Shown here in pieces: positions 4,221 to 40,467 of a stretch of 49,127 nt of DNA. The stretch is from positions 1 through 49,127 of the IMG/VR virus record IMGVR_UViG_3300045988_124399. The stretch is one strand, 5' to 3'. How positions within the stretch are numbered: position 1 is the stretch's first letter; every line of letters starts with the position of its first letter. The DNA is from a virus. The position numbers were made by a program, and so were the translations under genes. Under the pieces are notes generated by a model. That model saw nothing but the letters and a program-made list of their open reading frames with translations. It ran no database searches and was not told where the DNA came from.

Positions 4221-4269
4221 TATTGTCCTTTTGTTTATAATAAATAGTTGAAAGGAGAATATTTTATTT

Positions 4270-7196: not shown

Positions 7197-7208
7197 GGAG
7201 GGTGGAAA

Positions 7209-7565
7209 ATGCGTGCTTCAAGAGGAGAAATTAAAATTGAAGAAATCTTAGAAGAAGCAGGACTACCTTTTAAAATGGAATATATCTTTCCAGATTTAAA
7301 AAGCCCAAGCGGGCGTCCGCTTCGTTTTGATTTTGTTATATTTGATGATGATGGAAAAATTGATTTCATTATTGAGTATTAGGGAAAATAGCATTATGAA
7401 GCCAGTTCTAAATTTGGCGGAAAACGCGGTTTATACCAGTAGCAATATAATGATAATCAAAAAAGACGTTTTTGCGCTTTACATGATTTTAGATTAATAG
7501 AGATTCCATATACCGACGAAAACCTTATTTCTTATGATTATATAATGAAATTAGCAGGTTATTAA
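7209..7565 (+). CDS. Small nuclease-like protein (homing-endonuclease / PD-(D/E)XK-like) inserted between terminase and portal
   Basis: 118 aa. AGGAGG precedes the start. Motif RFDFVIFDDDGKIDFIIEYQGKQHY has a D...E.QGK pattern with 3 in-frame TAG. Its position is typical of endonuclease insertions. Confidence 0.35.
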
Positions 7566-7578
7566 AGGAGGTGGAACT

Positions 7579-9228
7579 TTGGATACGCAAGATCGTAATG
7601 ATTAGATTCACGCTAAAGGTTTTGATATTTATAATGGTCGTTATGAATATAATTATAATGACACTATGGATTATGCCAATAGAAAAATAAAAGTTGGCAC
7701 AAAAACTTTAGATGATGCTATTTTAAAACTTGGTGATTATAGTAAGATTAGATACCCAGGTCAAACTCGTATTATCACAAAACCTGATGTGCTTCGCGCG
7801 CTCGCAGAAAGGGACTTAAATGCTTTGCGATATATTTCTAATCTTTATTATGATATAAGTGGTGTATATCAACGAGTTTGTAATTATGTTGCTTTTTTAT
7901 ACCGCTATGATTGGTATATTGCAGCCGAAACTTATGATGATAATGTAAAAGAAGAAAAAGTTTTAAAAGATTTTTATAGAATGTTGAATTATTTTGATAA
8001 TAGTTATATTAAAAAGATTTGCGGAGATATTGCTTTACAAGTCGTTAAAAATGGATGCTATTATGGATATATAGTTCCTTCAGAGAAAAATCTAATTTTA
8101 CAAGAATTACCAGTTAGATATTGTAGAACACGTTATAGTGTAAATAATACCCCAGTTGTCGAATTTGATATGCGATTTTTTGATACTTTTAGAGATATGA
8201 ATTACCGTTTAAAAGTATTAAAATTATTCCCAGAAGAATTTGCTAAAGGTTATGTTTTATATAAGCAAGGAAAACTTGCTTTAGAAGACGCGGTTGGATG
8301 CTAGCATACTGGTAGTTGGTATGTTCTTGAGCCAGAAAATTGTATTAAATTTAATATTAATAATAGTGATGTTCCTATTTTTGTAAATTCCATTCCTACT
8401 ATTATGGATTTAGATGCAGCGCAAGATCTTGACCGCAAGAAACAAATGTAGAAGTTGCTTAAAATTTTAGTCCAAAAGCTCCCAATGGATAAAAATGGTG
8501 ATTTGATATTTGATGTTGATGAAGCCAGAGATATCCATAATAATGCCGTTTAGATGTTATAGAGGGCTATTGGAGTAGATGTTTTAACTACATTTACTGA
8601 TGTAGATTCTATTGATATGTCTGATAAAAATACTACTACAACGACAGATGATTTAGCTAAAGTTGAACGTAGTGTTTATAATTCGTTAGGTATTTCATAG
8701 AATTTATTTAATACTGATGGTAATATGGCTTTAGAAAAATCAGTGTTAAATGATGAATCTACAATAAGAAGTTTAATTTTATAGTTTAATATATTCTTTA
8801 ATAGAATTATTGAAAAAAAGAGTAGTAATAAGAAATATAATTTTAGATTTTATTTATTAGAAACTACTTAGAATAATTATCAAACACTTTCTAAAATGTA
8901 TAAAGAACAAGCGCAAATGGGACAATCAAAGCTATTGTCTTAGATTGCTCTTGGACATTCATAGAGTTTTATTCTTAATGCAGCTCATTTTGAAAATGAG
9001 ATTTTACATTTAAGTGAAATTATGATTCCTCCTCTTATGAGTTCTACTATGGGTAGTGAAGATATTTTGGGTTTAAAAGATTCATCATCTAATAATAAAA
9101 CTCAAAATAATTCAGGAAGTTCAGGGTCTGGAACTGCTAAAGCTTCTAATGGCGAGGCAGGACGTCCGGAAAAACCTGATGATTAGAAAAGTGAAAAAAC
9201 TATTCAAAATAAAGAAGCAATGAAATAA
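7579..9228 (+). CDS. Portal protein (about 11 in-frame TAG; TTG start)
   Basis: 549 codons directly downstream of terL. AGGAGGTGG lies 7 nt upstream of the TTG. One frame runs to the TAA at 9226. The call rests on synteny and size. Confidence 0.5.
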
Positions 9229-9237
9229 GGAGGATTT

Positions 9238-10821
9238 ATGAAACATACAAGTATTAAATTAAATACACCTTGTGAGTTTATAAATATAACTCCTGTAAAT
9301 CCTTTAATTTCTAAATGCCAAATTAAGGTTTGTTATGTAGATGATAAACCTAATCGTAACAAAAGCGTAATTACTAAAGATGTAGCGACTGAGATGGCTA
9401 ATAGCCTTCCCGGCAGTCCTATTGTTGGCTTTTTTAATGAGAATGCTGAAGATTTTGAAGAACATAATAGGATAATTGAATTATCTAACGGCGAATTTAG
9501 AATGAGAGATAATACTCGCCCTTATGGTTTTGTTGATCTTGGAGCTAAAGTTTGGTTTTAGAAATTTTTGGATGATGGTGTTGCCGAACGTGAGTATTTA
9601 ATGACTGAAGGTTATTTGTGGACTGGTTAGTATCCTGAATGTAAACGTGTAGTTGATAAAGGGAATAATCATTCTATGGAGCTTGATGAAAAAACATTAA
9701 ATGCTACGTGGGCAAAAGATAGTAATGGAAAGCCTTAGTTTTTTATTATAAATAAGGCAATTATTTCTAAACTTTGTATTTTGGGAGAAGAAAATGAACC
9801 TTGTTTCGAAGGCTCCCAAATCAATGTGAATTTTTCATTCGATGATGGTTTTAAGAACACTTTGTTCTCCATGATGAATGAACTTAAAGAATTTATGAAA
9901 GAAGGAGGACCCAAAGTGTTTACACAATATGCTGTTGAAATTGGCGATAGTTTGTGGAATTCTCTCTGGTCTTATGTTGAGACTAAGTATCCTGGCGAGC
10001 CTAGTAGTTATTGTTCTATTTATCGCATTGAAGGCGTTTATGAAGATGCTGGACAAAAGTTTGCTATTCTTCAAAATAGACAAGACCAAAAATATTATCG
10101 CATGGACTTTTCTCTTACCGATGTAGAAGGCTTTGTTCCTTCTGATGCTTTAACTGAAGTAACTAAGTCTTATACTCCGGCAGCAGAGCCTCAGTTTGCT
10201 CTTGCTGATATTGAAGCTTTTGAGACTGATTATGCTTCAAAGAAAAAGGCTGAAGAAGAGGACAAAAATAATAAATCTAACGACCAAAACCCTGATAATA
10301 AATCAGAGGGCAATGATAATAAAAAGAACCCTGATAATGGGGAACCCTCTAATAAGTCTGATAAAGGCGACAATGGTGAGAATGATGATAAAAAGAAAAA
10401 GAAGAATTATTCTCTTGAGGACGTTGTTGAATATACTGAACTTAAAGCTCAGTATGATGAATTACAGACTAAATTCGCAGCTCTTGAAACTGAAAATAAT
10501 AGCTTGAAAGAACAAATTGCTCCACTTGCTGAATTTAAAAATGCTGCTGAGAAGAAAGATAAAGAAGATATGATTGCTAAATTCTATATGCTTTCTGATG
10601 AAGATAAGGCTGATGTTGTTGAAAATATTGATAAATATTCTCTTGATGATATTGAAGCTAAATTATCTGTTATTTGTGTTCGCAACAAGGTGAGTTTCGA
10701 CCTTGACGAAAATAATAAGCCCAATGGTGCTACTACTTTTAATTTGAACGATAATGGTTCAGAAGATGATGATATGCCCGCTTGGGTGAAGGCGGCTTTT
10801 GCTACCGCCAACAAAAATTAA
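9238..10821 (+). CDS. Prohead scaffolding protein, possibly protease-scaffold fusion or nested arrangement (3 TAG, all in the first ~170 codons)
   Basis: ORFs 9238 and 9781 share a frame joined through TAG. There is a long acidic/Lys low-complexity segment plus a coiled coil (KAQYDELQTKFAALETENNSLKEQIAPL). Confidence 0.5.
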
Positions 10822-10838
10822 TAAGGAGGACATACTAA

Positions 10839-11756
10839 ATGTTTAAAGACTTTTTGAATAAGAATCTTCCTATTAAGTCTCAGGCAAAGTATGTTGAGTT
10901 TGGTTACGGTCAGGTCGAGCCTAATCACCTTTCCGCACAAAGAAATGCTCAAATCTATGCTCAACTTCCTGCCAATAAAGACATTGAGATTCTTGAAAAC
11001 GGTCAGTTTGTAAAGTATGACTATGCTGCTAATGGTAATGGTATCGGCGAAGTCAACTTCACTGGCGAAGGCGAATGGATGCTCGTTTATAACGAGATTA
11101 AGCTTTATCGTGATCATTATGATGGCAGTAAGCAGTGGGATTGCGAATTTGCTATGATTAAAGATGACTATCAGGCTCGTGTTTATAGCCCTTATGATTG
11201 GGAGCATACCGAGGTTGAATATGGTGGTCGTTTCTGGAACGGCGTTGATGAAAAGGGTCAAACCTATAAGTTAATCAATCAGACTGTTTCCGCAGATCAG
11301 GGCTTAAAGACTGTAACTATTGCTGGTCGTGTTTATGATGTCGATGAAGCCGGCAAGTTTACTTATGATGGTAATGAATATACTCTTGATAGTAATCATC
11401 AGGTTGCTAATGTTCCTGTAAAGTATTACTATGATAAGCTTCTTACTGATGTTCCTGATATGTATGAAATGAATTGGACTAATGATCCATATCATAAGTT
11501 AGGTATCTATCATGAGAAGTTCATGGAATCTGGTACTTCTATGGTTCCTCGTGTATTTAAGACCATGATTGGTGATCTTTATACTACTAATATGATTAAT
11601 GAAGAGACTCTTGCTGTTGGAGATAAGCTTTCTCCTTCTGCTGCTACAAAGGGTATTCTTAGCAAAACTGGCGACGATTCAATGACCTGGCAGGTTGTTA
11701 AGGTTTATACTATGCCTGATGGTCAAAAGGGCGTCAAGGTAATGCGTATTAAGTAA
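10839..11756 (+). CDS. Capsid-associated structural protein (TAG-free, GC3-rich codons)
   Basis: 305-aa uninterrupted ORF with a strong AAGGAGG Shine-Dalgarno. It sits immediately upstream of the capsid gene. It has many CAG/GGT/GCT codons and no TAG. Confidence 0.45.
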   Translation: MFKDFLNKNLPIKSQAKYVEFGYGQVEPNHLSAQRNAQIYAQLPANKDIEILENGQFVKYDYAANGNGIGEVNFTGEGEWMLVYNEIKLYRDHYDGSKQWDCEFAMIKDDYQARVYSPYDWEHTEVEYGGRFWNGVDEKGQTYKLINQTVSADQGLKTVTIAGRVYDVDEAGKFTYDGNEYTLDSNHQVANVPVKYYYDKLLTDVPDMYEMNWTNDPYHKLGIYHEKFMESGTSMVPRVFKTMIGDLYTTNMINEETLAVGDKLSPSAATKGILSKTGDDSMTWQVVKVYTMPDGQKGVKVMRIK

Positions 11757-11773
11757 GAAAGGAGAAAAGGATA

Positions 11774-12880
11774 ATGTTAGATAAAAATAATTTAATTGCT
11801 CTTATGAAGCAAGTTGCTAAGGCTGATCCTTCTGCTCCTGTTGCTTATAGTTATGAGGGAAAAAATCTTAGTTATGAAGCCTTAAATGAAACTCTTCGTA
11901 ATGAAATGAATGAGTTGGCTGGCACTTACGCTCTTTATCGTGAAAATAAGAATCTTATTTTCTCTATGATTGAGCAGACTCTTGATGAGGTTCTTCCTAA
12001 GAAAGTTATTCAGCAATATGATCAGTTTGCTGAGGTTAAGACTTTCGCTCAGGGTGATAAGCCTATCTTCCGTCGCCCTCTTAATAATCGTGCTCGTGCT
12101 AAGCAGTTTGTAACTCGCGTTGGTCTTGCTGGTATTTATGAAGTCTTCAAGCTCGGACCTAAAGAGAATGAAGCCTTTGAGGTACGTACTAGCGCTATCG
12201 GCGGAGCTGCTCAGATTGGCTTCGAAGAGTTCCTTGATGGTCGTGTTGATTTCGGTGAAGTAACCAAGATCATCATGGATGGTATGGATGAACTTATTTA
12301 TAAAGAAGTTGCTGCTGCTCTTAGATCTTCTATCAATCAGCTTCCTCCTGCTAACCGCGTTGCGGCTGCCGGATTTGATGAAGCTGCTATGGATCGTTTG
12401 ATCACTATTGCTTCTGCTTATGGCACTCCTACTATTTATTGTACTTATGAGTTCGCTGTTAAGATGATTCCTCATGAGGCTTGGAGATATACTGAAGCTA
12501 TGAAGAACGAACTTTGGAATAATGGTCGTCTTGCTACTTACAAGGGCACTAAGGTTATTATTCTTGAGCAGGGCTTTGAAGATGAAACCAATACTCGTAA
12601 GGTTATTGATCCTGGTTATGCTTGGGTTATTCCTACGGGCGCTGATGGTAAACCTGTAAAGATTGCTTTCGAAGGTGGCACTATTGTTGACGAGTTCAAT
12701 AATTATGACCGTTCTCGTGAGATTCAGGTTTACAAGAAGGTTGGCGTAGTTTGTATGCTTGCTAATAACATCTGTGCTTATGTTGATACTTCACTTCTCG
12801 GTCAGATGTATACTTGGAATTATGATGGAGTCACCGGTAAGGTTGTCACTTATGATGGCCGTCTTGATGGCAAAATCTAA
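11774..12880 (+). CDS. Major capsid protein (TAG-free)
   Basis: 368 aa at the synteny position after portal and scaffold. A strong terminator follows. Codon usage is that of a highly expressed gene (CGT, GCT, GGT, CAG) and there is zero TAG. Confidence 0.55.
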   Translation: MLDKNNLIALMKQVAKADPSAPVAYSYEGKNLSYEALNETLRNEMNELAGTYALYRENKNLIFSMIEQTLDEVLPKKVIQQYDQFAEVKTFAQGDKPIFRRPLNNRARAKQFVTRVGLAGIYEVFKLGPKENEAFEVRTSAIGGAAQIGFEEFLDGRVDFGEVTKIIMDGMDELIYKEVAAALRSSINQLPPANRVAAAGFDEAAMDRLITIASAYGTPTIYCTYEFAVKMIPHEAWRYTEAMKNELWNNGRLATYKGTKVIILEQGFEDETNTRKVIDPGYAWVIPTGADGKPVKIAFEGGTIVDEFNNYDRSREIQVYKKVGVVCMLANNICAYVDTSLLGQMYTWNYDGVTGKVVTYDGRLDGKI

Positions 12881-12900
12881 TTTAATATAAATTATTCCAT

Positions 12901-12943
12901 GGGGAGAAGGGATTAAACTCCCTCTCCCCATATTTTTGTTTTA
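12901..12943 (+). terminator. Rho-independent terminator after the capsid gene
   Basis: GGGGAGAAGGGA-TTAAAC-TCCCTCTCCCC followed by ATATTTTTGTTTT. Confidence 0.75.
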
Positions 12944-12966
12944 TGAGTAAAAGGAGAAATTGAATA

Positions 12967-13560
12967 ATGATTAATAATGAAGATATTTATAATGTAAAAA
13001 ATAGAAGCACTAGTGTAGTTGTTTATACTATTCCTGATACTAATTTGCGTCGTGAGTTTGCGCCCGGTGAGACTAAGCGTATTCCATTTGGTGAGCTAGA
13101 GAAGTTAACTTATCAGGCAGGCGGCCGCGAATTAATTGCTAATTTTTTACAAATTTTAGAGCCAGAAGTAACTCATACTCTTAATGTTCATACTGAACCT
13201 GAATATAATATGTCAGAGCAACAAGTTGCTGATTTAATTCTTAATGGCTCATTAGATGCTTTCTTAGATGCTCTTGATTTTGCTCCTATTGGAATTATTG
13301 ACTTAATCAAGAATTTATCTGTTAGCCTTCCTATTACTGATATTAATAAGCGTAGAGCTTTGAAGGAAAAAACTGGGTTTGATGTTGATAAAGCTATTGC
13401 TAATGATATCGCTAGTAAAGAAGAAGATACTATTGTAGAGAAAGAACCCGCTGCTAAGCGCCGTGTAGTAAGAGAAGAACCTACTACTCAAGGTCGTCGC
13501 ACAAGCGGTTCTGGATATAAAGTAATTAATAAAACCGAGGAAACTTCCTCCAAGAAATAA
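12967..13560 (+). CDS. Hypothetical head or neck structural protein (TAG-free)
   Basis: 197-aa uninterrupted ORF. AAAGGAGA precedes the start and the stop is TAA. Confidence 0.4.
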   Translation: MINNEDIYNVKNRSTSVVVYTIPDTNLRREFAPGETKRIPFGELEKLTYQAGGRELIANFLQILEPEVTHTLNVHTEPEYNMSEQQVADLILNGSLDAFLDALDFAPIGIIDLIKNLSVSLPITDINKRRALKEKTGFDVDKAIANDIASKEEDTIVEKEPAAKRRVVREEPTTQGRRTSGSGYKVINKTEETSSKK

Positions 13561-13579
13561 TTTATAGGAGGGCGATTAA

Positions 13580-14152
13580 GTGGGAACATTATTCTCAACT
13601 GTTTATAATCGCTTTCTAAACAAGGTTACTGATGATATGTATCTGGAATTGACTCCTGAAGATACTCTAAGAGATTTATAGAATCTTATAATAGATGCTA
13701 TTCCTGGATTTGAATTTCCGCGAAAAAATCTTTTAGATTATAATTTAGATGTCGCTACTATTAATGAATCTGACGCTATGCCGGATGATTTTATTGTAGG
13801 AACAGTATGGGGGGAACTTCCAGAACCGGGTGAAGAACCTCAAGTTTTAGTTGATAGATCCAGTTTTAATTGTGATCTAACTGAAGAAGAAATTAATATT
13901 TTAGCTATTTTAATGATGTGCGGTTGGACGCAAAGACAAGTCACTTCAATTGAGAATACTCGAATGAAATATAGTGGCTCTGATTTTAAATTTACTTCTT
14001 AGGCAAATCATCTATCAAAGCTATTGAATTTATTAGGTGAATGCCAAAGACAATCTCACCATATGTAGCGTTTATATAAACGCAGACGTTTAAATAATAA
14101 AGGTGAGTATGAATCTAATTGGGATGTATTTAAAAGTCGATATGATTACTAA
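13580..14152 (+). CDS. Head-tail connector / head completion protein (GTG start, 3 TAG)
   Basis: AGGAGGG lies upstream of GTG 13580. The frame is continuous to the TAA at 14150. The call is by position. Confidence 0.4.
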
Positions 14153-14450
14153 ATATAATTTTGATATTCCAATAGAGAGTATAAAAGTAAATTGTTTGCG
14201 CTTAACCAATCAATTATGGAAATTAATTCCAATGCGCGAAAATAATGAAGATTGGCATAAATAGCTAGAAACTGTTATAAATGAAATTGTGGGGTTTAGT
14301 GTAATTTTTAACGCTGAACCCCTTTATTTATAGTTATTAAATAAACTTGAGGGATTGTAGAATCAAGATACTGATTTTAATTTTTATCGTAAGACTGTGT
14401 TTGAAACGATCAGTCTTTTGTAGGAGATAAATTATGGCGTCAGGGTTTGA
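14142..14450 (+). CDS. Small neck/adaptor protein (4 TAG)
   Basis: The ATG overlaps the upstream stop. The 102-aa frame ends in TGA and overlaps the next ATG. Confidence 0.35.
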
Positions 14451-15498
14451 TTATAGTAGTAAGCAACCTTTTAGATTATAGCAAGGTCGCTTAGGAATTT
14501 ATGATAAGCCACCCTTTAAAGGTAGCCCTGTTGAAGGCGTTAATTATATGGCGGTTCGGCTCGGTCAGATGGGCGGAAATCGCCAACAAGAGCGTATGAT
14601 TTTATCTAAGCGCAGAAGTTTAGATAGAGCAGTATGGAATTCATACCAAGCCGCAGAAATTATTAAATAGGATGCGGAATATAAAAAACCTATTAGGTGT
14701 TTGATTAATCCTAACAAATTGAAATAGGATTATGATGATAAGATTTTGTCTGTTGGAAATGAATATTAGTTTAAACCAGGAGATATTTTTGAATGGTGTG
14801 GAACTAATACCTATTGGATTTGTTATCTTTAGGATTTGACTGAATTAGCTTATTTTAGAGGAGATATTAGAAAATGCTCTTATAAAATAAATTGGGTAGA
14901 TGAGGGAGAGAAAAAGTCTACTTATGCAGCAATTCGTGGTCCTGTAGAAACGAAAATTAATTATATTCAAAAACATGAAATTAGTGTAGATATTCCTAAT
15001 TATTCATTAAATATTTTGATGCCTAAGAATAAAGATACTTTGAGTTATTTTAAGCGGTATACAAAATTTTATTTAGATAGTTAGGATGATGGAGATAATT
15101 TAATTTGTTGGCGTGTTGAAGCTGTAGATTCCATAAGTATGCCTGGTATTTTAGAAGTTAATGCGACTGAATATTATATTAATGAGTAGGAAGATAATTT
15201 AGAGGATAAGACTGTTGGTTCTTTAATTGCGGAACCGATTGATCCGAATCCTACAACAACTGATATTATAGGGGAAACGTTTATTTTTCCAAAGAAAACT
15301 TATACTTATTATTTTGATGGTGAAGTTGTTTTAGAATGGAAAATAAAAAATAATAAAAAGTTGCCGGTTTCTTTAAAAATTATTAAAGAAGCAAAAAAAC
15401 CAACAGTTGAAATAAGTTGGACTTCTGGATATAGTGGATAGTTCGATTTACTATATGGAGATTATAAAAAAACGATAATTGTTCAATCATTGTTTTAA
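14434..15498 (+). CDS. Hypothetical structural protein (about 7 TAG)
   Basis: Frame 1 is continuous from ATG 14434 through track ORF 14836 to the TAA at 15496. Confidence 0.4.
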
Positions 15499-15513
15499 GG
15501 AGAAAAAGGTGTT

Positions 15514-16095
15514 ATGAAGATTGATGGAGTAAAGATTCCTAAATCTAGTTTCTTATCTATGGAAAAGGATTTAGAAATTGTTGTAAATCATTTATGTAAA
15601 AATGAAAGATTAAAACGTTTATTGTATTATACTACCCCAGATGCTATAGACAAGCCAAATCTGAGTGATGAACAAATGATTTAGTTATTTAAGAAAAATA
15701 TTAAATTAATTCCTAAATTATATGTTGATGGTAGTGTTTTAAATTATGTCGTAATTAGTTTTGATAATTTTATTCCTAATGATACAAATCCAGAATTTAG
15801 GGATAATATTATTGAATTCGATATAGTTTGTCATTATGATTAGTGGCATTTAAAAGATTATTAGTTGCGTCCTTATCGCATTGCTGCGGAAATAGATAGT
15901 ATGATAGATAAAACACATTTAACAGGTATTGGAAAATTGGAATTTCTTGGTGGTAACCAAATTATTTTAACTGATGAATATGCTGGTTTATGTCTTATGT
16001 ATACTGCTATTCATGGTGAAGAAGATAAGAAATTTATGCCAAATCCCAATGATGAAGAAAGATTTTTAAAAGACTTTTAGGATAGAACTAAATAA
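15514..16095 (+). CDS. Hypothetical neck / tail-completion protein (4 TAG)
   Basis: AAGGAGAAAAAGG lies upstream. The frame is continuous through ORF 15865. The TAA overlaps the next ATG. Confidence 0.4.
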
Positions 16096-16820
16096 TGGAT
16101 TTACGTTTAGGCTTAATGTGCGGAATTGATTTACCAATACCAGAACTTTAGGCTACAATTCATTAGCCAAAGATAAAAGAGATTGCTTTTGTCGGTGAAA
16201 AAGATTTCTTCCTTGGGGTTCAATGTCTTTGTATTGATAAAAATATAATAGCCAATTAGGGCGAAAGTCTTTTAGTTAATACGAATAATTTTTAGATATT
16301 TATGACAATGATGAAAGAAAAAGAGATGGCTGAAAAAAAAGATTCAGTCATAAATGTTTTTTCTCTTATATTTCCAAAATATAAAACTTTATTTACTCCA
16401 AGATCTATCATTTTACAAAGTGATACTTAGATAATGATTGATGATTCAAATTTTGAAATTCTTTAGGAATATTTAAAGGAAATATTTTGTTTTAAATCTT
16501 CTATGTCTCAAGAGCTGGGTTTTAACCCTGCTAATGATACTGCTAAAAAAATTGCAGATAAATTAATGAGAGGTAGATAGAGAGTTGCTGAATTAAATGG
16601 TTCAGCTAATGTTAGTATATTTAGTTAGTATCTTTCAATGCTTACTGTAGGTTTAGATTCAATGTCTCTACAGGATTTAATGGATTTAACAATGTTCCAA
16701 CTTTTTGACCTTGTTGAAAGATATTAGCTTTATATTAATTGGGATATTGATATTCGGTCAAGGCTAGCAGGCGGAAAACCTGATGGCAAACCGGAGAACT
16801 GGATGAAAAATATCCATTAA
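16095..16820 (+). CDS. Hypothetical tail-completion protein (about 9 TAG)
   Basis: Frame 0 is continuous to the TAA at 16818. It lies immediately upstream of the major tail protein. Confidence 0.35.
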
Positions 16821-16844
16821 ATTTATTAAGGAGGAAAATAACCT

Positions 16845-17843
16845 ATGAAATTTGGTGTTCGCGAAATTTGCGATGTCGTTTTAAAGGCTAAGGCAACTCA
16901 GAAGGTTGGTAATAAAATCTTTTATAGAAATGAGCCAGTTATTTATTTCGACACTTTAAAAACTTCCAGCATGGAAGGCGCTGCTACCACTGTATATGCA
17001 CAGGGAGGACGCGGTAATGCTCGTTTAGTAGCCTGGGAAGGTGAGCGTACTGTTACCTTTACAATGGAAGATGCTCTTATTTCTCCAGAAGGTTTCATGA
17101 TTCTTTCTGGTGCTGGTCTTGTTGAAGCAAGTGCTACTAGTACTATTAAACAGCACGTTACTGAAACTGTAGATAAATCACAAATTGATAGTACAACTAC
17201 TGAAGGACAAGTTACTATTCGTGTTTCTAAAAAGCCCTATCTTCCAACAGACGAACAAGAGAATTTTGCTTATGTTATGTTTGTCAAAGATGGCGAAATT
17301 ATCACTGAGCCTTTTATTCCTGTCCATGAGGAGTTAACCGCTAAGAAAGATACTAATGGTAATGAATATTTTGAATTAACTCTTAAAACTCCACATGATG
17401 ATTATATTGCTGGTACAGGTAATTATACTTTTAATGAAAAGAACGGCCTTCCAGCGGCTGCAGCATATGATAGTGCTATTGTTGATTATTATACTGAAAA
17501 GGCTAGCGGCGCTCAACAGATTGAGATTACTGCTGATAAATTCGGTGGTAACTATTATCTTGAAGCCTCTACTTTATTCCGTGATCAAAATGGTGTTGAT
17601 ATGCCTGCTGAATTTATTATTCCTAACTGCAAGATTCAGTCTAACTTCACCTTTACAATGGCTTCTTCTGGTGATCCTTCTACTTTCACCTTTACTATGG
17701 ATGCTTTCCCTGACTATACTCGTTTTGACCACAGTAAGAAAGTTCTTGCGGCAATTCAAATTATTGAGGAAGGCGGAGCTAGTGACCTCCATCGTACTAT
17801 GACTGCTCACGACGAGGCTCACAATGCTTCTTTCACTGACTGA
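16845..17843 (+). CDS. Major tail (tube) protein (TAG-free)
   Basis: 332 aa. AAGGAGGA precedes the start. The protein is Thr/Ser-rich and beta-rich. It sits ahead of the chaperone/tape-measure region. It has highly-expressed codon usage and no TAG. Confidence 0.5.
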   Translation: MKFGVREICDVVLKAKATQKVGNKIFYRNEPVIYFDTLKTSSMEGAATTVYAQGGRGNARLVAWEGERTVTFTMEDALISPEGFMILSGAGLVEASATSTIKQHVTETVDKSQIDSTTTEGQVTIRVSKKPYLPTDEQENFAYVMFVKDGEIITEPFIPVHEELTAKKDTNGNEYFELTLKTPHDDYIAGTGNYTFNEKNGLPAAAAYDSAIVDYYTEKASGAQQIEITADKFGGNYYLEASTLFRDQNGVDMPAEFIIPNCKIQSNFTFTMASSGDPSTFTFTMDAFPDYTRFDHSKKVLAAIQIIEEGGASDLHRTMTAHDEAHNASFTD

Positions 17844-18016
17844 TGATTATTAAAGGTAAACGTTGGAACATCCAAAAGAAAACTGAGGAAGTAAAAAACA
17901 ACAATACCAAGAAAGAGAAAAAAGCTGTTAAATCTATTAAGGTTCCTGAAGAGCCTGTGGTTTCTGAAGAAGAAATTGATGAGGTCAGCAAATTCTTTAA
18001 TTTAGATAAAGAATAA
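17843..18016 (+). CDS. 57-aa Lys/Glu-rich ORF overlapping the major tail protein stop (TGATG), or a frameshift extension of it
   Basis: MIIKGKRWNIQKKTEEVKNNNTKKEKKAVKSIKVPEEPVVSEEEIDEVSKFFNLDKE. It has no Shine-Dalgarno of its own. It ends just before the terminator. Confidence 0.25.
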   Translation: MIIKGKRWNIQKKTEEVKNNNTKKEKKAVKSIKVPEEPVVSEEEIDEVSKFFNLDKE

Positions 18017-18022
18017 TTTTAT

Positions 18023-18058
18023 GGGAGAGAATAGAAATATTCTCTCCCATTTTTTTTA
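18023..18058 (+). terminator. Rho-independent terminator
   Basis: GGGAGAGAATA-GAAA-TATTCTCTCCC followed by TTTTTTTT. Confidence 0.75.
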
Positions 18059-18081
18059 TTTAGGGAGAAAGGAGAGATAAT

Positions 18082-19188
18082 ATGAATTCATTATAGAGAA
18101 GTATTAAGGCCAGTCCAAGAGAAATGAATACAGAAGATTTTTTAAAGAAATCTTATGAATTTACAAAAAGAAGTATGAGTTAGAAATTAAGAGCAAGAGA
18201 TACTTCTGAAAAACAAGCTAAAAAATTAGAAGAATTCTTTCAAAGTATTCAAAATAGATAGCTTGGAAATCCTATCGAAAATATCCAAATGAGTGAATTA
18301 TTAGATGCTTTAGAATAGATTAATCCTTAGCTTTTTAATTCAATGAAATATTTATTTACTACGCCAGATAACTATGGAGATTCTAATGATGCGCATGGTA
18401 AATATTTTGAAGGGGTTATAGCGGAAGCGGTTGCCACTGCGGAGAATTATTTTGCTGGTAATAAAACTATGACTATAAGTGGAAGTAGTAAAAAGGCTGG
18501 AACCGCATCTGTTAACCTTATAGATTTAGCAAAGGATTTAGATGAAGATACAAAAAATTTAATGAATGATATTTATTAGAAAACTGCTCAAGAAATGAAA
18601 AAAGATAGTGAAGCTGCATCTTCTACAATAAAAGGAGTTTCTGGCAAAGCGGATATTATAGGAATTTAGTAGAATTATACAATATAGAAAACTAGCCATT
18701 TAGAATTAGATGAAGAAATTTATGATGCTTTATTAAATGCTACTTTTACTGCGAAAAATTATATGTCTAACACTTAGATTGAATTAGGATCTACTAATCC
18801 TTTTCGTGTTTTTATGACTATGATTCCTCTTGGAGGAGCTACAAGTAAAATTTAGAGATATTACCGTATGTTGGCTTGTAAATAGAAGCACTTTCCTGAT
18901 AAGCATCCTGATGCACCAAAGTATTTTTATAGATTAAGAGCTATTTATGAATTAACTGGTGGAAAATCTAATTATACTAATACTGTATTAAATAAGCTAA
19001 TAGGTGGAAATTATACTAAATTTTTAGTTTTAAATTTATAGGGACATATAAGAGTTATTCCTACTTAGAGTGTCATAAAAGAGCTTATTGACAATATTGA
19101 TGATGATTAGTTTAATAAAGATATAGATTGGCAAAAGGCTTTATATGGACGTATTAGGATTAATCAAAATAAATTTAGTGAAATTTAA
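18082..19188 (+). CDS. Hypothetical tail-module protein (about 19 TAG)
   Basis: GGGAGAAAGGAGAG lies upstream. Frame 1 is continuous through ORF 18343 to the TAA at 19186. Confidence 0.4.
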
Positions 19189-19190
19189 AA

Positions 19191-19219
19191 TTGACTAAAT
19201 AGAAAATTTTTTGTATAAT
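19191..19219 (+). promoter_or_regulatory. Consensus sigma-70 promoter TTGACT-17-TGnTATAAT
   Basis: TTGACT at 19191-19196 and an extended -10 TGTATAAT at 19212-19219 with a 17-bp spacer. It drives 19247..19780. Confidence 0.65.
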
Positions 19220-19246
19220 ATAATAAAGAGTAAAAGGAGATTAATT

Positions 19247-19780
19247 ATGGCTAAAATTTCATATACTAAATTAGGAATTAGCAAGGAAGAATTGAATAAA
19301 GTTCAGACTGTAGAATATAATGATCAGACTATTGAAGTAAAGCAATATCTTCCAGTTGCAGAAAAGAGTGAATTAATTACTCGTGTATTAAATAATTCTG
19401 TAGATGAAGACAATGGATATTATAATCTTTTAAAGATGGATATGCATCTTGCACTTGAGATTGTTTATGCTTATAGTAATATTAATTTTACAGAAAAGCA
19501 AAAAGAAGATTCAGCGAAGCTTTATGATATGCTCAATGCTTCAAAGGTGCTTAATCTTATTATTGGTCTTATTCCAGAGGGGGAGTTTTATTATTTAAAT
19601 AAGACTGTCCATGAAATGGCTAATAATATTGTAGCTTATCGCAATTCCGCGATGGGAATTATGGAGCGCATTACTACTGATTATAGTAACTTAAATTTTG
19701 ATGCTAGCACGATTCAAAAAGAGCTTGCCGATCCTAATAATATGACTTTATTGAAAGATATTCTCACTAAATTGGGCTAA
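19247..19780 (+). CDS. Putative tail assembly chaperone (TAG-free, own promoter and terminator)
   Basis: 177 aa from MAKISYTK. AAAAGGAGA precedes the start. The protein is helical and acidic. It sits immediately upstream of the tape measure gene. Confidence 0.35.
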   Translation: MAKISYTKLGISKEELNKVQTVEYNDQTIEVKQYLPVAEKSELITRVLNNSVDEDNGYYNLLKMDMHLALEIVYAYSNINFTEKQKEDSAKLYDMLNASKVLNLIIGLIPEGEFYYLNKTVHEMANNIVAYRNSAMGIMERITTDYSNLNFDASTIQKELADPNNMTLLKDILTKLG

Positions 19781-19825
19781 TTAAATTATTTAATTTAATT
19801 AATTTTTTAAAGTCATTAGAGTAAT

Positions 19826-19870
19826 GGGGATAAGAGTATTTTATTACTCTTATCCCCTTTTTATTTTTAT
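19826..19870 (+). terminator. Rho-independent terminator
   Basis: GGGGATAAGAGTA-TTTTA-TTACTCTTATCCCC followed by a T-run. Confidence 0.75.
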
Positions 19871-19909
19871 TTTGCAAAGTAAAAATTAAGAGAGAAAGGA
19901 GATTTTTTG

Positions 19910-22900
19910 ATGGCTAAACAATTAAATAGTTATCAAGTTAATTTACAATTTAATGCAAATACTACATAGGCGAAAACGCAATTGCAAGATTTGCAAACGA
20001 CCCTTGATGCTATTATAAAGGAATCTGTGGCGGGAGTCTCTAAAGGAGATTTTAATTTAACTAAAAGATTAAACGAAGCGCAGATAGCAGCATCAAAACT
20101 ACAAACCATTTTAGCTCAAACTACTAATGTAAAAACGGGAAAAATGGATTTAACAAGATTTTCTCAATCTTTAAAATAGAGTAATTTAGATTTAAAAAAG
20201 ATATAGAATAGTTTACTTGAACTTGGACCTTCTGGGCAAAAAGCTTTTATGTCTTTAGCTCAATCTATTGTTGAAGCTGATGTTCCATTAAAAAGAACAA
20301 ATTTATTAGTTTCTGAATTATGGACAACTTTAAAGAATACAGCTCGTTGGTAGATTTCTTCTAGTGCATTGCATGCATTTATGGGTACTATTCAATCTGC
20401 TTATGGATATGCCAAAGATTTAAATGAATCTTTAAATGATATTCGTATTGTTACTGGACACAATATTGAATATATGGATAAATTTGCTGAAAGAGCAAAT
20501 AAAGCGGCGAAAGCATTAAATGCTACTACATTAGATTACACTAATGCTTCTTTAATTTACTATCAATAGGGTTTAAGTGATGAAGAAGTAGAAAAAAGAA
20601 CAGATATTACTGTTAAAATGGCTAATGTCATTAAACAAAATGCTGATATTGTTTCTGATCAATTAACTGCGATTTGGAATAATTTCTATGATGGCTCTGA
20701 CTCTTTAGAACATTATGCTGATGCGATGGTGCGCTTAGGTGCAGATACCGCGTCTAGCTCTGATGAAATTGCTGGTGGTCTTGAAAAATTTGCGGCAGTT
20801 GCTAATACAATTGGTTTAAGTTTTGATAATGCAGCAGCTGCATTGGCTACTATTACTGCTACAACTCGTCAAAGTGAAGATGTAGTAGGTACTTCTTTAA
20901 AGACTATTTTTGCTCGTATTCAAGGTTTAAAATTAGGCGAAACCTTAGAAGATGGCACCACTTTAAATCAGTACTCACAAGCTCTTGCAGCTGTTGGAGT
21001 TAATATTAAAGACTCCAATGGACAATTAAAGGATATGGATATCATTCTTGATGATTTGGGACACAAATGGTCAACAATTAGTAAAGATCAATAGGTAGCT
21101 TTAGCTCAACAAGTAGCTGGTATCCGTCAATACAACCAATTAATTGCTTTAATGGATAATTTTGATTTTTATCAAGAAAATATTCAAAGAGCAAAAGAAG
21201 CAGATGGTTCTTTACAAGAACAAGCTGATATTTATGCTGAAAGTTGGGAAGCTGCTCGTGATCGTGTGCGTGCAGCAGCCGAAAGCATTTATGATGATTT
21301 GATTAATGATAAATTCTTTATTAGTTTGTCTGATGCGATAGCAGGAGCTTTAGATGCTATCGATAAATTGATTAGTTCTATAGGAGGTCTTCCGGGAGTA
21401 ATTGCAGCTCTTGGAATGATATTTACTAAAGTGTTTAAAGTTCAAATGGGCGAGGGCGTTAATAATTTAGTTTTTGGCCTTTAGTCTTTAGTTGGACTTA
21501 CAAAAAAGAGTGCAGTTTCTCTTAAACAAGAAGCTTATAATCGAGCTTCTAATATGGCTTTTGATACTGGTACTGAAGTTGGAGATAGATAGGGAGAATC
21601 ATTAAAATAGACTTTAGACTTAAAGAAAAGAATATATGATATATCTGAAAATATTACAAAAGAGGAAAGACAATAGCTTGAAGGGTTAATTGAAATTAAT
21701 CGAGCTTATAATGAACAGGCTATAAAAGCAGCTCAAAAAAAAGATTAGGCTAGTGAGAATCTTCAAAATACTCGCATGGATCTTAGAGCGCGCATAAGAA
21801 GAAATTCTGCCACTGGAAAAGTAGAAAAAAATTTAAATACTTTTGGAAATGTTCAATAGCAAATGGGTGGAATTATTAAAACTGGTTTGCGAGGAACTAA
21901 AGCTTTAGATAGACTTAATAAAGCATTAAAAGAAGGAAGTCCATTAGGAAAAGCTTTTGAGGGCAGAATAAATACAATTCAGCAGGCTTTAATTAAAGTA
22001 GATAGATCTGAAGCAGCTGAATCTATTGGAAATTTTGTTGAAGAATTAAAAAACGGAACTATAACAGTAGATTAGTTCTTGAAAAAAGTAAATAATGTTG
22101 TCACTAAAGAAAATTTAATGGCTGATGCTACATCCAAAGCGGCAGCTATTCTTGAGGATGACTTTGGTAAAAAAGTTAAAATTAACGGCGAGGAATGTCA
22201 AAAGCTTGCTGAAGATATGACTGAAGTTATTGTAACAACAGATAAATTAAAAACTACTAATAAGCAAGTTGCTGGGTCTTATGAAAAAATAAAAGCTGCA
22301 ATTGAAAATTATAAAAATGCTACTGGAGATTTAGGGTAGAAATTAATTTCTATGGTTAATGGTTTTTCTTCATTGGCTATGGGATTGGCTTCCATTAAGA
22401 GTATTTTTGATACTTTATCTGATGAAGATATGTCATTCTTTGATAAACTTTTATCAGTTAGTATGTCTTTAGGCATGGGTATTTCTATGACCGTTTCTGG
22501 CTTATCTACTATGGCTAAAGCCTATAAAGAATTGGCAGAAGCTAAAACTTTAGATAATATAAAGACTTCGATTAATACTGCTATTACAGAGATTAATAAT
22601 CTGGTAAAAGCTTAGGCGGCCGCCAGAACAGGAACTCAAACAGTAGCTACAGATAGATAGGCATTGGCTGAAAGCAAACTTACAAAAAATATAATATTGT
22701 AGAATGCTGCCTATTTAGTCCGTAATACACAGATGTCTGCAACAGCAGCTTTTGGATTAAGTTTAGCTGGTACTATATTAGCTGTAGTTGCAGCTGCAGC
22801 GGCTTTAGTGCTTATATCTAAAGCAGTTTATAATTCTATTCATAAAGAAGAAATAGCGGCTGAAGCAGCAGCCAAAGCGGCTTCAGATCTTGGTAATGCT

Positions 22901-28828: not shown

Positions 28829-28834
28829 AATTAA

Positions 28835-28870
28835 GGGTGAAGTCTTATAGGCTTCACCCTTTTTCTTTTT
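28835..28870 (+). terminator. Rho-independent terminator after the tape measure gene
   Basis: GGGTGAAG-TCTTATAG-GCTTCACCC followed by TTTTTCTTTTT. Confidence 0.75.
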
Positions 28871-28943
28871 GGGTAATTATATTGAATAAAACTAATTAAT
28901 TTTTTAGAAAATTATAGAGTAATGAGTAAAAGGAGGGATTATT

Positions 28944-32378: not shown

Positions 32379-32403
32379 ATATGATAAAAGGAGAAAAAGG
32401 AAA

Positions 32404-32580: not shown

Positions 32581-32581
32581 A

Positions 32582-37745: not shown

Positions 37746-37758
37746 GGAGGACCACTAA

Positions 37759-38103: not shown

Positions 38104-38105
38104 TA

Positions 38106-40379: not shown

Positions 40380-40389
40380 TTTAAATAAA

Positions 40390-40420: not shown

Positions 40421-40467
40421 GTATTGATTAAAAAGATTTTATAAATAATAGAAAGGAGTCGGTTATC

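What the first reader, a model, noticed from the sequence alone, without database searches (positions are those of the whole stretch)
10839..19780. Two codon dialects in one operon: TAG-free, GC3-rich genes embedded among TAG-dense genes
Several genes have zero TAG and favour CGT/GCT/GGT/CTT/CAG codons. These are 10839-11756, 11774-12880 (major capsid), 12967-13560, 16845-17843 (major tail), 19247-19780 and 41064-42725. Their immediate neighbours have 2-5 TAG per 100 codons and AT3 codons. The TAG-free genes are the ones expected to be made in the highest copy number. Possible explanations are selection against inefficient suppression, expression before the suppressor is available, or mosaic acquisition from standard-code phages. 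Whichever applies, virion assembly splits into suppressor-independent and suppressor-dependent components.
Basis: seen in the sequence. Interest (0 to 1): 0.75.

Follow-up and report, generated by a model that had tools for sequence, protein, structure and literature searches.

The report
Abundant virion genes avoid recoded TAG
In a gut phage that reads the stop codon TAG as glutamine, the genes for its most abundant particle proteins (capsid, a capsid-adjacent protein, tail tube) almost never use TAG and use a distinct "high-expression" codon set, a pattern conserved across about 80 relatives that suggests reading TAG carries a translational cost.

Summary
The + strand block 3165-49127 is a TAG→Gln recoded late operon of a phAss-1-like (SPbeta-like) siphovirus. 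All six named genes have 0 in-frame TAG, against about 1 zero-TAG gene expected (P≈1e-4).

- **Codon dialect:** strong only for 10839, 11774 (MCP) and 16845 (tail tube). It is weak for 12967, 19247 and 41064 (GC3 0.13). It forms a gradient, not two classes.
- **Conservation:** across 60 recoded relatives, four families (10839, MCP, 12967, tube) stay about 99% TAG-free. Their rare TAGs are all lineage-private. 19247 is not conserved as TAG-free, and 41064 is only partly depleted.
- **Independence from recoding:** the same families carry the same codon bias in standard-code relatives and in phAss-1, so the dialect does not depend on recoding.
- **Transcription architecture:** conserved terminators follow the MCP and tube genes.

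Best explanation: translational selection in high-copy genes, with TAG as the most disfavoured Gln codon. Recent import from standard-code phages is not supported, and early expression before the suppressor is unlikely for genes packed 17 nt from TAG-containing neighbours. This is a modestly novel detail of a known phenomenon.

The parts
3165..49127 (+). TAG-to-Gln recoded late (structural) gene block of 26 genes. It contains 210 in-frame TAG and no in-frame TGA or TAA. All 25 complete genes stop with TAA or TGA, never TAG.
   Evidence: TAG aligns with Gln in 60% of cases in standard-code relatives. 93% of TAG differences among close relatives are with CAA or CAG.
9238..10821 (+). Scaffold-like coiled-coil protein (phrog_3313). 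It is the intermediate member of the gradient, with 3 TAG (0.57 per 100 codons) and PC1 2.4.
10839..11756 (+). TAG-free, strongly codon-biased gene of unknown function directly upstream of the capsid gene (candidate decoration, cement or scaffold protein). It has conserved N- and C-terminal regions and a variable middle.
   Evidence: 0 TAG of 14 Gln-type codons. Zero TAG in 70 of 80 orthologs. TAG share .014 in recoded relatives. PC1 4.98. No Pfam or PDB hit, and the AF2 model is poor. Same position in phAss-1 and Enterococcus phage VRE9_4.
11774..12880 (+). Major capsid protein gene. TAG-free, the most codon-biased gene in the window, and the most conserved.
   Evidence: phrog_4088. tblastn hit to the annotated MCP of Bacillus phage PJN02, 26% identity, E 2e-11. 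0 TAG of 12 Gln-type codons. Zero TAG in 71 of 80 orthologs. PC1 5.55.
12899..12931 (+). Intrinsic-terminator hairpin plus T-run immediately after the capsid gene.
   Evidence: dG -22 kcal/mol, z -6.3. Present in 16 of 17 lineage representatives, including standard-code ones.
12967..13560 (+). Small head-module protein of unknown function. TAG-free here, with weak codon bias.
   Evidence: 0 of 5 Gln-type codons, not significant alone (P=.1). Zero TAG in 66 of 78 orthologs, with TAG share .055.
16845..17843 (+). Major tail (tube) protein gene. TAG-free and codon-biased. It is a recombinant allele relative to otherwise near-identical genomes.
   Evidence: phrog_2729. Homologs annotated tail tube or major tail protein in Tsamsa-like Bacillus phages, E 1e-17 to 1e-19. 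Position upstream of the chaperone-position gene and the TMP. Zero TAG in 62 of 67 orthologs. 68% identity to group A but 93% to recoded L023/L029.
18021..18050 (+). Intrinsic-terminator hairpin after the tube gene.
   Evidence: dG -20, z -6.8. A terminator lies within 150 nt downstream of the tube gene in 11 of 17 lineages.
18082..19188 (+). Lineage-specific inserted gene of unknown function and the TAG-richest gene in the window (15 of 22 Gln-type codons). It serves as a counter-example showing the contrast.
   Evidence: Found in only 6 of 80 loci. No PHROG or Pfam hit. P(>=15)=.003.
19191..19219 (+). Sigma-70-like promoter match (TTGACT-17-TATAAT, 11 of 12) in front of 19247.
   Evidence: Consensus match only.
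19247..19780 (+). Chaperone-position gene in front of the tape measure. TAG-free in this window only. The ATG at 19247 with an AAAGGAG Shine-Dalgarno site is the likelier start, rather than the TTG at 19211.
   Evidence: Zero TAG in only 17 of 63 orthologs.
19826..19857 (+). Intrinsic-terminator hairpin after 19247-19780.
   Evidence: dG -22, z -9.9. Conserved in 17 of 17 lineages.
19907..28828 (+). Tape measure protein of 2973 aa with 60 in-frame TAG. This sets a lower bound on suppression efficiency.
   Evidence: PHROG TMP families, E 5e-51..
41064..42725 (+). Variable tail-fibre-like protein. TAG-free here and partly TAG-depleted in relatives. It is not GC3-rich.
   Evidence: 0 of 15 Gln-type codons (P=.001). 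0-3 TAG in 19 close relatives against about 1 per 100 codons in neighbours, and 80-98% identity where neighbours are 93-99%. No family hit.
42784..42815 (+). Intrinsic-terminator hairpin after 41064-42725.
   Evidence: dG -18 to -19, z -6.3.

Best explanation
The window is the late structural operon of a TAG=Gln (code 15) siphovirus of the phAss-1 / SPbeta-like group. Its genes lie along a gradient of translational selection. The proteins needed in hundreds of copies per virion are the major capsid protein, the protein encoded just upstream of it, and the tail tube protein (about 670 copies for a tail set by a 2973-aa tape measure). Their genes use a 'high-expression' codon set (CTT, CGT, GCT, GGT/GGC, AAG, TTC, CAG; no ATA, little TTA, AGA or GGA). 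This set predates recoding and also exists in standard-code relatives. In recoded lineages TAG behaves as an extra, AT-rich Gln codon. It accumulates to about 37% of Gln codons in low-copy genes and exchanges with CAG and CAA. In the high-copy genes it is removed by purifying selection about ten times more strongly than the ordinary non-preferred codon CAA. The most likely cost is that decoding by the phage suppressor tRNA(CUA) is slower or less complete than ordinary decoding, through competition with release factor 1. That would lower yield and produce truncated subunits exactly where flux is highest.

[quoted passage not shown] Inferred: the copy numbers, high expression, and that inefficient suppression is the cost.
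For: 1. Six zero-TAG genes against 1 expected. No dependence on gene length or GC3.
2. An unsupervised RSCU axis computed without Gln codons puts all six in the top 7 of 26.
3. In 60 recoded relatives, TAG per 100 codons is .06 (10839).05 (MCP).18 (12967) and .05 (tube), against .56-3.7 in other families.
4. Across 15 recoded lineages, all 17 TAG-bearing columns in these four families are singletons, against 49% of 320 columns elsewhere (Fisher p=1.2e-5). They sit mostly at conserved CAG or CAA columns.
5. Codon-bias PC1 computed only in three standard-code lineages ranks the same families on top, with the same loadings, and predicts TAG share in recoded lineages (rho -.61 to -.76). CAG share in standard-code relatives is .42-.73 in these families against .16-.39 elsewhere.
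6. In the four families CAA persists (1.1-2.2% of codons) while TAG is .05-.18%. Elsewhere the TAG:CAA ratio is about 0.6.
7. The same pattern appears in phAss-1 at 50% MCP identity: 0 TAG, CAG 15 / CAA 0 in the MCP gene, and the highest GC3.
8. Conserved terminators lie directly after the MCP gene (16 of 17 lineages) and the tube gene (11 of 17), and after no other head gene (0 of 17).
9. Gaps of 17 nt join 9238, 10839 and MCP, so they are co-transcribed with TAG-containing genes.
10. A tRNA with anticodon CTA is present in genomes about 99% identical over the head genes.
11. A tape measure with 60 TAG implies per-codon read-through of roughly .97 or more. At that efficiency the 4.4 TAG expected in the MCP gene would still cost 4-13% of capsid output.
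Against: No expression, proteomic or read-through data exist for this phage. Copy number is inferred from homology and synteny. The function of 10839 is unknown and both AF2 models failed. The host, and therefore its preferred codons and tRNA pool, is unknown. Shine-Dalgarno strength does not separate the classes. 41064 is TAG-free here without notable codon bias and is probably not a very high-copy protein. 19247 is TAG-free only in this lineage. In some crAss-like phages the MCP gene does carry reassigned stops (PMC7886860), so the rule is not universal. Occasional lineages tolerate 2 TAG in the MCP or tube gene (L066-68, L024). Related loci are not phylogenetically independent, although lineage representatives were used.
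Confidence: 0.7

Rival explanations
1. TAG as a deliberate attenuator. The primary selected feature is enrichment of TAG in low-copy or dangerous genes (tape measure, tail tip, inserted gene 18082, lysis genes). Incomplete read-through would then set stoichiometry or lock expression until the suppressor is made. On this view the TAG-free genes are simply the ones that must not be throttled.
For: TAG share differs significantly upward in some genes (18082: 15 of 22, P=.003; 28944: 24 of 42, P=.006). TAG positions are conserved across up to 13 of 15 lineages in low-copy genes. Borges et al. (10.1101/2021.08.26.457843) propose family-specific enrichment and depletion as regulation. The suppressor lies in the opposite-strand arm of the genome.
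Against: Most TAG-containing genes are statistically indistinguishable from a common share of about 37%. TAG density is not ordered by plausible copy number among them: portal at 2.0 per 100 codons is similar to the TMP at 2.0. Sharing of TAG at conserved Gln columns is also expected under neutrality. This view is not exclusive of the best explanation, because both need imperfect suppression.
Confidence: 0.15
2. Temporal separation. The TAG-free genes are translated before the suppressor tRNA accumulates, so they must be readable in the standard code.
For: 19247-19780 has an 11 of 12 sigma-70-like promoter and its own terminator. TAG-free ('dual-coded') genes are typical of early blocks in other recoded phages (10.1101/2022.06.29.495998).
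Against: 10839, MCP, 12967 and the tube gene are embedded 17-24 nt from TAG-containing genes in the same terminator-bounded units. Capsids and tails cannot assemble without TAG-containing portal, TerL, connector and tape-measure proteins, so early capsid protein would have no use. The same codon bias exists in standard-code relatives, where no switch exists. 19247 orthologs usually contain TAG.
Confidence: 0.06
3. Mosaic import. The TAG-free genes were recently acquired by recombination from standard-code phages and have not yet accumulated TAG.
For: Standard-code and recoded lineages are interleaved at 81-87% MCP identity. The tail module 15514-19780 is clearly recombinant, and the tube gene has a discordant identity profile (rho -.07). 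41064 is unusually variable.
Against: MCP, 10839 and 12967 have identity profiles congruent with TAG-rich neighbours (rho .64-.70). The nearest tube allele (93%) is in recoded phages, and both 68%-diverged alleles are TAG-free. TAG-freeness of the same four families holds in every recoded lineage and in phAss-1, which would need repeated imports of the same genes. Rare TAGs do arise but stay private.
Confidence: 0.04
4. Chance or composition. For the short or weakly biased genes (12967, 19247, 41064), zero TAG in this window is partly sampling noise or a by-product of amino-acid and base composition.
For: 12967 and 19247 have only 5 Gln-type codons each (P=.1). 19247 orthologs usually carry 1-2 TAG. 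41064 relatives carry 0-3. Out-of-frame TAG is also low in 10839, MCP and the tube gene.
Against: 12967 is TAG-free in 66 of 78 orthologs. 41064 has 15 Gln-type codons (P=.001) and its relatives remain about 5-fold depleted. Out-of-frame TAG is at normal levels in 12967, 19247 and 41064. This view cannot explain the four conserved families.
Confidence: 0.05

Closest known systems
phAss-1 / proposed Phassvirus group ('Caudoviricetes code 15 clade'; Babkin et al. 2023, PMC10607447)
   Same: Human-gut siphovirus-type genomes of at least 130 kb with TAG-to-Gln recoding of TerL, portal, tape measure and tail genes. They carry Sup-CTA tRNAs in a tRNA array on the opposite-strand arm. Head-module gene order is the same. 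The MCP gene is not among the recoded ORFs. The same four TAG-free, CAG-rich families are present.
   Different: MCP is only 50% identical and there is no nucleotide-level match. Relatives' contigs reach 160-200 kb, and base composition is more AT-rich. The paper does not analyse which late genes lack TAG or why.
Stop-codon recoding as a late-gene or lysis regulator; 'dual-coded' blocks (Ivanova 2014; Yutin 2021, PMC7886860; Borges 2021 preprint 10.1101/2021.08.26.457843; Pfennig preprint 10.1101/2022.06.29.495998)
   Same: In-frame TAG is concentrated in structural genes. The suppressor tRNA is encoded elsewhere in the genome. Close standard-code relatives exist. Gene families differ in TAG use, with integrases avoiding it.
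   Different: Those models contrast early and late blocks or integrase and lytic genes. Here the TAG-free genes lie inside the late operon, interleaved with TAG-dense genes, and they track a codon-bias and copy-number axis rather than timing.
Translational selection on synonymous codons in highly expressed genes, including phage structural genes (classical codon-bias theory; from my own knowledge: Sharp & Li 1986-87; Lucks et al. 2008)
   Same: A gene-bounded shift to a restricted codon set in the most abundantly made proteins. It is conserved among orthologs and independent of local base composition.
   Different: The disfavoured 'synonymous' codon here is a reassigned stop codon read by a phage-encoded suppressor, so the cost plausibly includes termination and not only slow decoding.
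T7 gene 10 / T-phi type architecture (a terminator directly after the major capsid gene; from my own knowledge)
   Same: Strong intrinsic terminators immediately downstream of the capsid and tube genes, conserved across lineages.
   Different: No transcript data exist here, and the promoter type of the late operon is unknown. A sigma-like gene heads it at 3165.
Amber-reassigned Crassvirales genus (bioRxiv 10.64898/2026.08.21.746148)
   Same: The authors note, as a surprise, that the MCP gene shows no alternative codon use inside the recoded late region.
   Different: It is an unrelated podovirus-like lineage and a single genome. No link to copy number or codon bias is made, and a different explanation is offered.

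Membership tests
TAG-to-Gln (genetic code 15) recoded phage | Conserved phage genes are broken by in-frame TAG and restored by TAG read-through | tested here: met
   Coverage rises from 47% to 84% and the longest ORF from 553 to 2973 aa. TerL, portal and the TMP are restored.
TAG-to-Gln (genetic code 15) recoded phage | TAG aligns with glutamine in standard-code homologs | tested here: met
   Gln 60%, Glu 12%, Lys 5% against standard-code relatives. 93% of TAG differences among close relatives are with CAA or CAG.
TAG-to-Gln (genetic code 15) recoded phage | TAG is not used as a terminator | tested here: met
   All 25 complete + strand genes end in TAA (21) or TGA (4).
TAG-to-Gln (genetic code 15) recoded phage | A suppressor tRNA with anticodon CUA is encoded by the phage | tested here: inconclusive
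   None in the window or within 10 kb of its ends. A 90-nt tRNA(CTA) is present in contigs about 94-99% identical over the head genes (L133, L129, L155), about 60 kb away on the opposite strand. The window's own genome was not read there.
TAG-to-Gln (genetic code 15) recoded phage | Gln is actually inserted at UAG during infection | not testable with these tools
   This needs proteomics.
Phassvirus genus (phAss-1, BK046881, BK025033) | Substantial nucleotide identity (members share 80-86%) and the same synteny | tested here: not met
   Megablast of 11 kb against GenBank phages gives no match. MCP is 50% identical. Head-module synteny is shared. This is a related, broader group and not the genus.
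Translationally selected (highly expressed) gene class | These genes are the extremes of the main axis of synonymous codon usage, and the effect is bounded by gene limits | tested here: met
   PC1 explains 35% of variance, with MCP, 10839 and the tube gene on top. Adjacent genes differ sharply.
Translationally selected (highly expressed) gene class | The same bias is found in orthologs of independent lineages | tested here: met
   Three standard-code lineages and phAss-1 show the same families and the same codons.
Translationally selected (highly expressed) gene class | The preferred codons match the host's abundant tRNAs or its highly expressed genes | not testable with these tools
   The host is unknown. 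Clostridia are predicted for phAss-1 (PMC10607447, section 2.5).
Translationally selected (highly expressed) gene class | The products are measurably the most abundant | not testable with these tools
   Inferred from MCP and tube homology, from TMP length, and from terminators after these genes.
Recently imported mosaic segment | A phylogenetic or identity profile discordant with flanking genes, with donors in standard-code phages | tested here: not met
   MCP, 10839 and 12967 are congruent. The tube gene is discordant, but its nearest allele lies in recoded phages.
HK97-fold major capsid protein (for 11774-12880) | HK97-like fold | not tested
   Only sequence homology to an annotated MCP (E 2e-11), position and size. 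PDB sequence and profile searches were empty.
Siphovirus tail tube protein (for 16845-17843) | Tube fold, and a position upstream of the chaperone and tape-measure genes | tested here: inconclusive
   Synteny is met, and homologs are annotated tail tube or major tail protein. The AF2 model has pLDDT 51 and the Foldseek hits are meaningless.

The most novel reading that the evidence does not exclude
The reassigned TAG is not a neutral 21st sense codon but a graded translational attenuator. Per-codon read-through below 100% would make TAG load a heritable dial on protein yield. On this reading the phage lineage sets virion stoichiometry, and locks selfish or dangerous genes such as the 18082 insertion, partly by TAG density. 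Purifying selection keeps the highest-flux, terminator-bounded genes (capsid, capsid-adjacent, tube) code-neutral. A corollary is that code-neutral core genes and interleaved standard-code lineages would allow recombination across the code boundary and even reversion from code 15 to code 11.
Probability: 0.2. Interest if true: 0.7.

Novelty: new variant of a known kind. Interest (0 to 1): 0.5.

Why it matters
Current models treat phage stop-codon recoding as an early/late switch or a lysis lock. This locus, with about 80 relatives, shows that inside the recoded late operon the most abundantly needed genes are kept free of the recoded codon by purifying selection. That implies TAG decoding has a measurable fitness cost. 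It gives a simple, testable, quantitative handle on an open question, namely whether recoded stops are adaptive regulators or tolerated, slightly deleterious codons that drift up in low-expression genes. It gives practical rules for annotation: TAG-free genes inside code-15 blocks are not evidence of a code boundary. It also informs the design of code-locked engineered phages. The underlying principle, codon selection in highly expressed genes, is classical, so the surprise is moderate.

Tried and rejected
- Pfam gave no family for any of the six TAG-free proteins.
- PDB searches with single sequences and with ortholog profiles for 10839, MCP and the tube protein found nothing.
- AlphaFold2 with 23-24-sequence alignments gave pLDDT 49.5 (10839) and 51.5 (tube). 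The homologs were too similar to one another (at least 69% identical). The Foldseek search of the tube model returned only noise. No fold-based identification was therefore obtained, and 10839 remains unassigned.
- Megablast against GenBank phages found no near relative.
- No tRNA was found in the window or in 10 kb extensions at either end. The suppressor was found only through a pattern built from the phAss-1 tRNAs.
- Shine-Dalgarno duplex energies do not separate TAG-free from TAG-rich genes.
- A shared k-mer search of intergenic regions found only ribosome-binding sites, with no common late-promoter motif.
- The simple terminator scan missed the bulged hairpin after the MCP gene. It was recovered by folding.
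- I considered and rejected dependence of TAG density on gene length or GC3, low Gln content (these genes have 2.5-4.6% Gln-type codons), regional base composition (the shifts are gene-bounded), TGA or TAA recoding, and TAG coding for Tyr, Leu or Ser despite the long extra arm of the suppressor (alignment says Gln).

Full report
**What the window is.** The window is 31% GC. Under the standard code it is only 47% covered by ORFs of at least 100 aa. Reading TAG through raises this to 84% and yields a 2973-aa ORF, while TGA read-through adds nothing. From 3165 to the right end there are 26 co-oriented genes with 210 in-frame TAG, no in-frame TAA or TGA, and only TAA or TGA as terminators.

PHROG and BLAST annotation give a tailed-phage late module. 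In order it contains:
- a sigma-factor-like gene (3165);
- TerL (5457);
- an HNH homing endonuclease (7209);
- portal (7579);
- a coiled-coil scaffold-like gene (9238);
- an unknown gene (10839);
- the major capsid gene (11774);
- connector genes;
- the tail tube gene (16845);
- an inserted gene (18082);
- a chaperone-position gene (19247);
- a 2973-aa tape measure (19907);
- large tail-tip and fibre genes.

The nearest GenBank relative is phage phAss-1 (MCP 50% identical), the type of a described TAG-to-Gln group with Sup-CTA tRNAs (PMC10607447). More distant relatives are SPbeta-like or Tsamsa-like Enterococcus and Bacillus siphoviruses. IMG/VR holds many closer relatives, with 76-100% MCP identity and contigs up to about 200 kb.

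**TAG means Gln.** Window TAG codons align with Gln in 60% of cases in standard-code relatives. Among close recoded relatives, 93% of codon differences involving TAG are with CAA or CAG. A 90-nt tRNA with anticodon CTA lies in a tRNA array in contigs 94-99% identical to the window over the head genes. It is roughly 60 kb from the structural operon and on the opposite strand, the same arrangement as in phAss-1.

**Checking the observation.** All six named genes have zero TAG.
- Under a common TAG rate about one zero-TAG gene is expected. Six such genes, containing 1938 codons, never occurred in 200,000 simulations. The result holds when conditioned on Gln-type codons.
- TAG density is unrelated to gene length or GC3.
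- The claimed codon preferences are strongly true for 10839, 11774 and 16845.
- They are weak for 12967, 19247 and 41064. Gene 41064 has GC3 of 0.13 and CAG/CAA of 1/14. 'GC3-rich' is therefore a poor label, because most preferred codons end in T.
- An unsupervised PCA of RSCU that leaves out Gln codons gives a continuous axis: MCP, then 10839, the tube gene, 9238, 12967, 19211, 41064, and then all others. All six zero-TAG genes are in the top seven (P=3e-5). The TAG-containing scaffold-like gene 9238 is fourth.

The sequence therefore shows a gradient and not two discrete dialects.

**Is it conserved?** I called code-15 ORFs in 80 related loci and assigned orthologs.
- Twenty loci belong to standard-code lineages, and 60 are recoded.
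- In the recoded loci TAG per 100 codons is .06 (10839), .05 (MCP), .18 (12967) and .05 (tube), against .56-3.7 in the other families.
- 19211/19247 is not conserved as TAG-free (zero TAG in 17 of 63 orthologs).
- 41064 carries 0-3 TAG in 19 close relatives. That is a roughly five-fold depletion relative to its neighbours, but it is not an absence.
- Using one representative for each of 15 recoded lineages, every one of the 17 TAG-bearing alignment columns in the four depleted families is private to a single lineage. In the other families only 49% of 320 columns are private, and TAGs are shared by up to 13 lineages (Fisher p=1.2e-5).
- The private TAGs sit mostly at conserved CAG or CAA columns. 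TAG therefore arises in these genes but is not retained.
- phAss-1 shows the same four TAG-free, CAG-dominated, highest-GC3 families.

**The dialect does not depend on recoding.** In standard-code relatives the same four families have a CAG share of .42-.73, against .16-.39 elsewhere. A PCA done separately in three standard-code lineages again puts 10839, MCP and the tube gene on top. The loadings are the same: CGT, CTT, TTC, GCT and GGT against TTA, ATA, AGA and GGA. That score predicts TAG share in the recoded lineages (rho -.61 to -.76). In recoded lineages CAA persists in the four families at 1.1-2.2% of codons while TAG is nearly absent. TAG is thus avoided far more strongly than the ordinary non-preferred Gln codon.

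**Architecture.** Gaps of 17 nt with GGAGG-type ribosome-binding sites join 9238, 10839 and MCP. Nearly all genes have strong Shine-Dalgarno sites, so these do not discriminate between classes. Strong hairpin-plus-T-run terminators (dG -18 to -23 kcal/mol, z -6 to -10) lie directly after the MCP gene, the tube gene, 19247, the TMP and 41064.

Across 17 lineages, a terminator follows the MCP gene in 16, the tube gene in 11, and 19247 in all 17. None follows any other head gene. Four of the five or six terminators follow TAG-free genes (P about .005-.015). This resembles the T7 gene 10/T-phi arrangement and is consistent with these genes ending abundant transcripts. It is not proof of high expression.

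**Rival explanations.**
- *Mosaic import.* Identity profiles of MCP, 10839 and 12967 across 18 lineage groups agree with their neighbours (rho .64-.70). The tail module 15514-19780 is recombinant relative to otherwise 99%-identical genomes, and the tube gene is discordant. However, its closest allele (93%) is in recoded phages, and both diverged alleles are TAG-free. Import from standard-code phages is therefore not supported.
- *Timing.* The genes are co-transcribed with TAG-containing genes, and their products are useless without TAG-containing portal, TerL and TMP. The codon bias also exists where no code switch exists. Only 19247, with a sigma-70-like promoter (11 of 12 match) and its own terminator, could plausibly be expressed independently, and its orthologs usually contain TAG.
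- *Chance.* This is adequate for 19247 and cannot be excluded for 12967 from the window alone, but it is ruled out for the conserved families.
- *TAG as an adaptive attenuator in low-copy genes.* This is compatible with the data (18082 and 28944 are significantly TAG-enriched). It is the most interesting reading not excluded.

**Mechanism and numbers (inference).** At 0.15 nm per residue, a 2973-aa tape measure implies a tail of about 450 nm and about 670 tube subunits. Capsids for genomes of 160-200 kb need many hundreds of MCP copies. With 60 TAG in the tape measure, per-codon read-through must be about .97 or higher to give a usable yield (.16 at .97.55 at .99). At those efficiencies, the 4.4 TAG the MCP gene would carry at the average share would cost 4-13% of capsid protein and would generate truncated subunits. 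That is a plausible selective cost in the highest-flux genes.

**Comparison with the literature.** Recoding in this group is known, and the phAss-1 paper lists TerL and TMP, but not MCP, as recoded (PMC10607447). Borges et al. tested families for avoidance and reported integrases (10.1101/2021.08.26.457843). Pfennig et al. describe dual-coded early blocks (10.1101/2022.06.29.495998). Yutin et al. used stops in the MCP gene as evidence of recoding in crAss-like phages, so MCP avoidance is not universal (PMC7886860). A 2026 preprint notes a TAG-free MCP in one Crassvirales genus as a surprise (10.64898/2026.08.21.746148). In the papers I could search, I found no analysis that links TAG avoidance inside the late operon to copy number, codon bias and purifying selection.

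**Verdict.** This is a real, conserved feature. It is best read as classical translational selection extended to a reassigned stop codon. It is a new variant of a known kind, of moderate interest.

Noticed in passing
window 18082-19188: A 368-aa gene with no family hit is present in only 6 of 80 related loci. It is inserted between the tube gene and the chaperone-position gene, is flanked by a terminator (18021-18050) and a sigma-70-like promoter (19191-19219), and has the highest TAG load in the window (15 of 22 Gln-type codons). It looks like a moron-type or selfish insertion that depends strongly on suppression.
   Followed up: partly
L027-L040, L059-L062, L064-L065, L081 compared with the other loci: Standard-code lineages are interleaved with TAG-recoded ones at 81-87% MCP identity. 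In a crude NJ tree of TerL+portal+MCP they nest among recoded lineages, with recoded phAss-1 as the outgroup. This suggests either reversion from code 15 to code 11 or repeated gains. The tree has no bootstrap support values.
   Followed up: partly
L133 9078-9167 (-), L129 7965-8054 (+), L155 3369-3458 (-): The suppressor tRNA(CTA) of close relatives is 90 nt long with a long extra arm (class-II-like, or carrying an insertion), and it lies next to a 90-nt tRNA-Tyr. Even so, TAG aligns with Gln. Its aminoacylation identity is unresolved. The exact-pattern scan hit none of the standard-code relatives' contigs, which is only a weak negative.
   Followed up: partly
L133 7726-7805 (-): ARAGORN calls an 80-nt tRNA with anticodon TCA (labelled 'SeC', a possible opal suppressor) in a genome about 99% identical to the window over the head genes. 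No window gene has an in-frame TGA, and four genes stop with TGA.
   Followed up: no
window 15514-19780: The tail-proximal module is recombinant. Genomes 95-100% identical across 3165-15498 are only 82-86% identical across 15514-16820, 84% in 19211, and 68% in the tube gene. L023/L029, which are otherwise about 70% identical, carry a 93%-identical tube gene.
   Followed up: yes
window 7209-7565: An HNH or homing-endonuclease gene lies between TerL and portal. It contains 3 TAG and is highly conserved (72-100%) across lineages.
   Followed up: no
window 3090-3135: A perfect sigma-70 consensus (TTGACA-17-TATAAT) lies upstream of the sigma-factor-like gene 3165 that heads the late block. To its left are small, oppositely oriented genes (362-3051, - strand) that are intact under the standard code.
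   Followed up: no
window 12899-12931, 18021-18050, 42784-42815: The terminator hairpins after the MCP gene, the tube gene and 41064 share a similar stem (ATGGGGAGA / ATGGGAGAGA / ATGGGGAAAGA ... CCCAT), as if they derive from one sequence family.
   Followed up: no
window 40468-41049, 41064-42725 and 42844-: Three consecutive tail genes begin with a similar N-terminal motif (K-F/I-x-K/R-G-S/P ... Y-x-V/L), reminiscent of tail-fibre N-terminal domains. The last ORF exceeds 2094 aa and runs off the window.
   Followed up: no
L129, L133, L155 (tRNA arrays): Relatives carry about 10 dispersed tRNAs. These include Ile(TAT), Arg(TCT) and Leu(TAG), which read AT-rich codons avoided by the high-copy genes, but also Leu(AAG), which reads the preferred codon CTT. 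The low-copy dialect may therefore depend partly on phage tRNAs.
   Followed up: no
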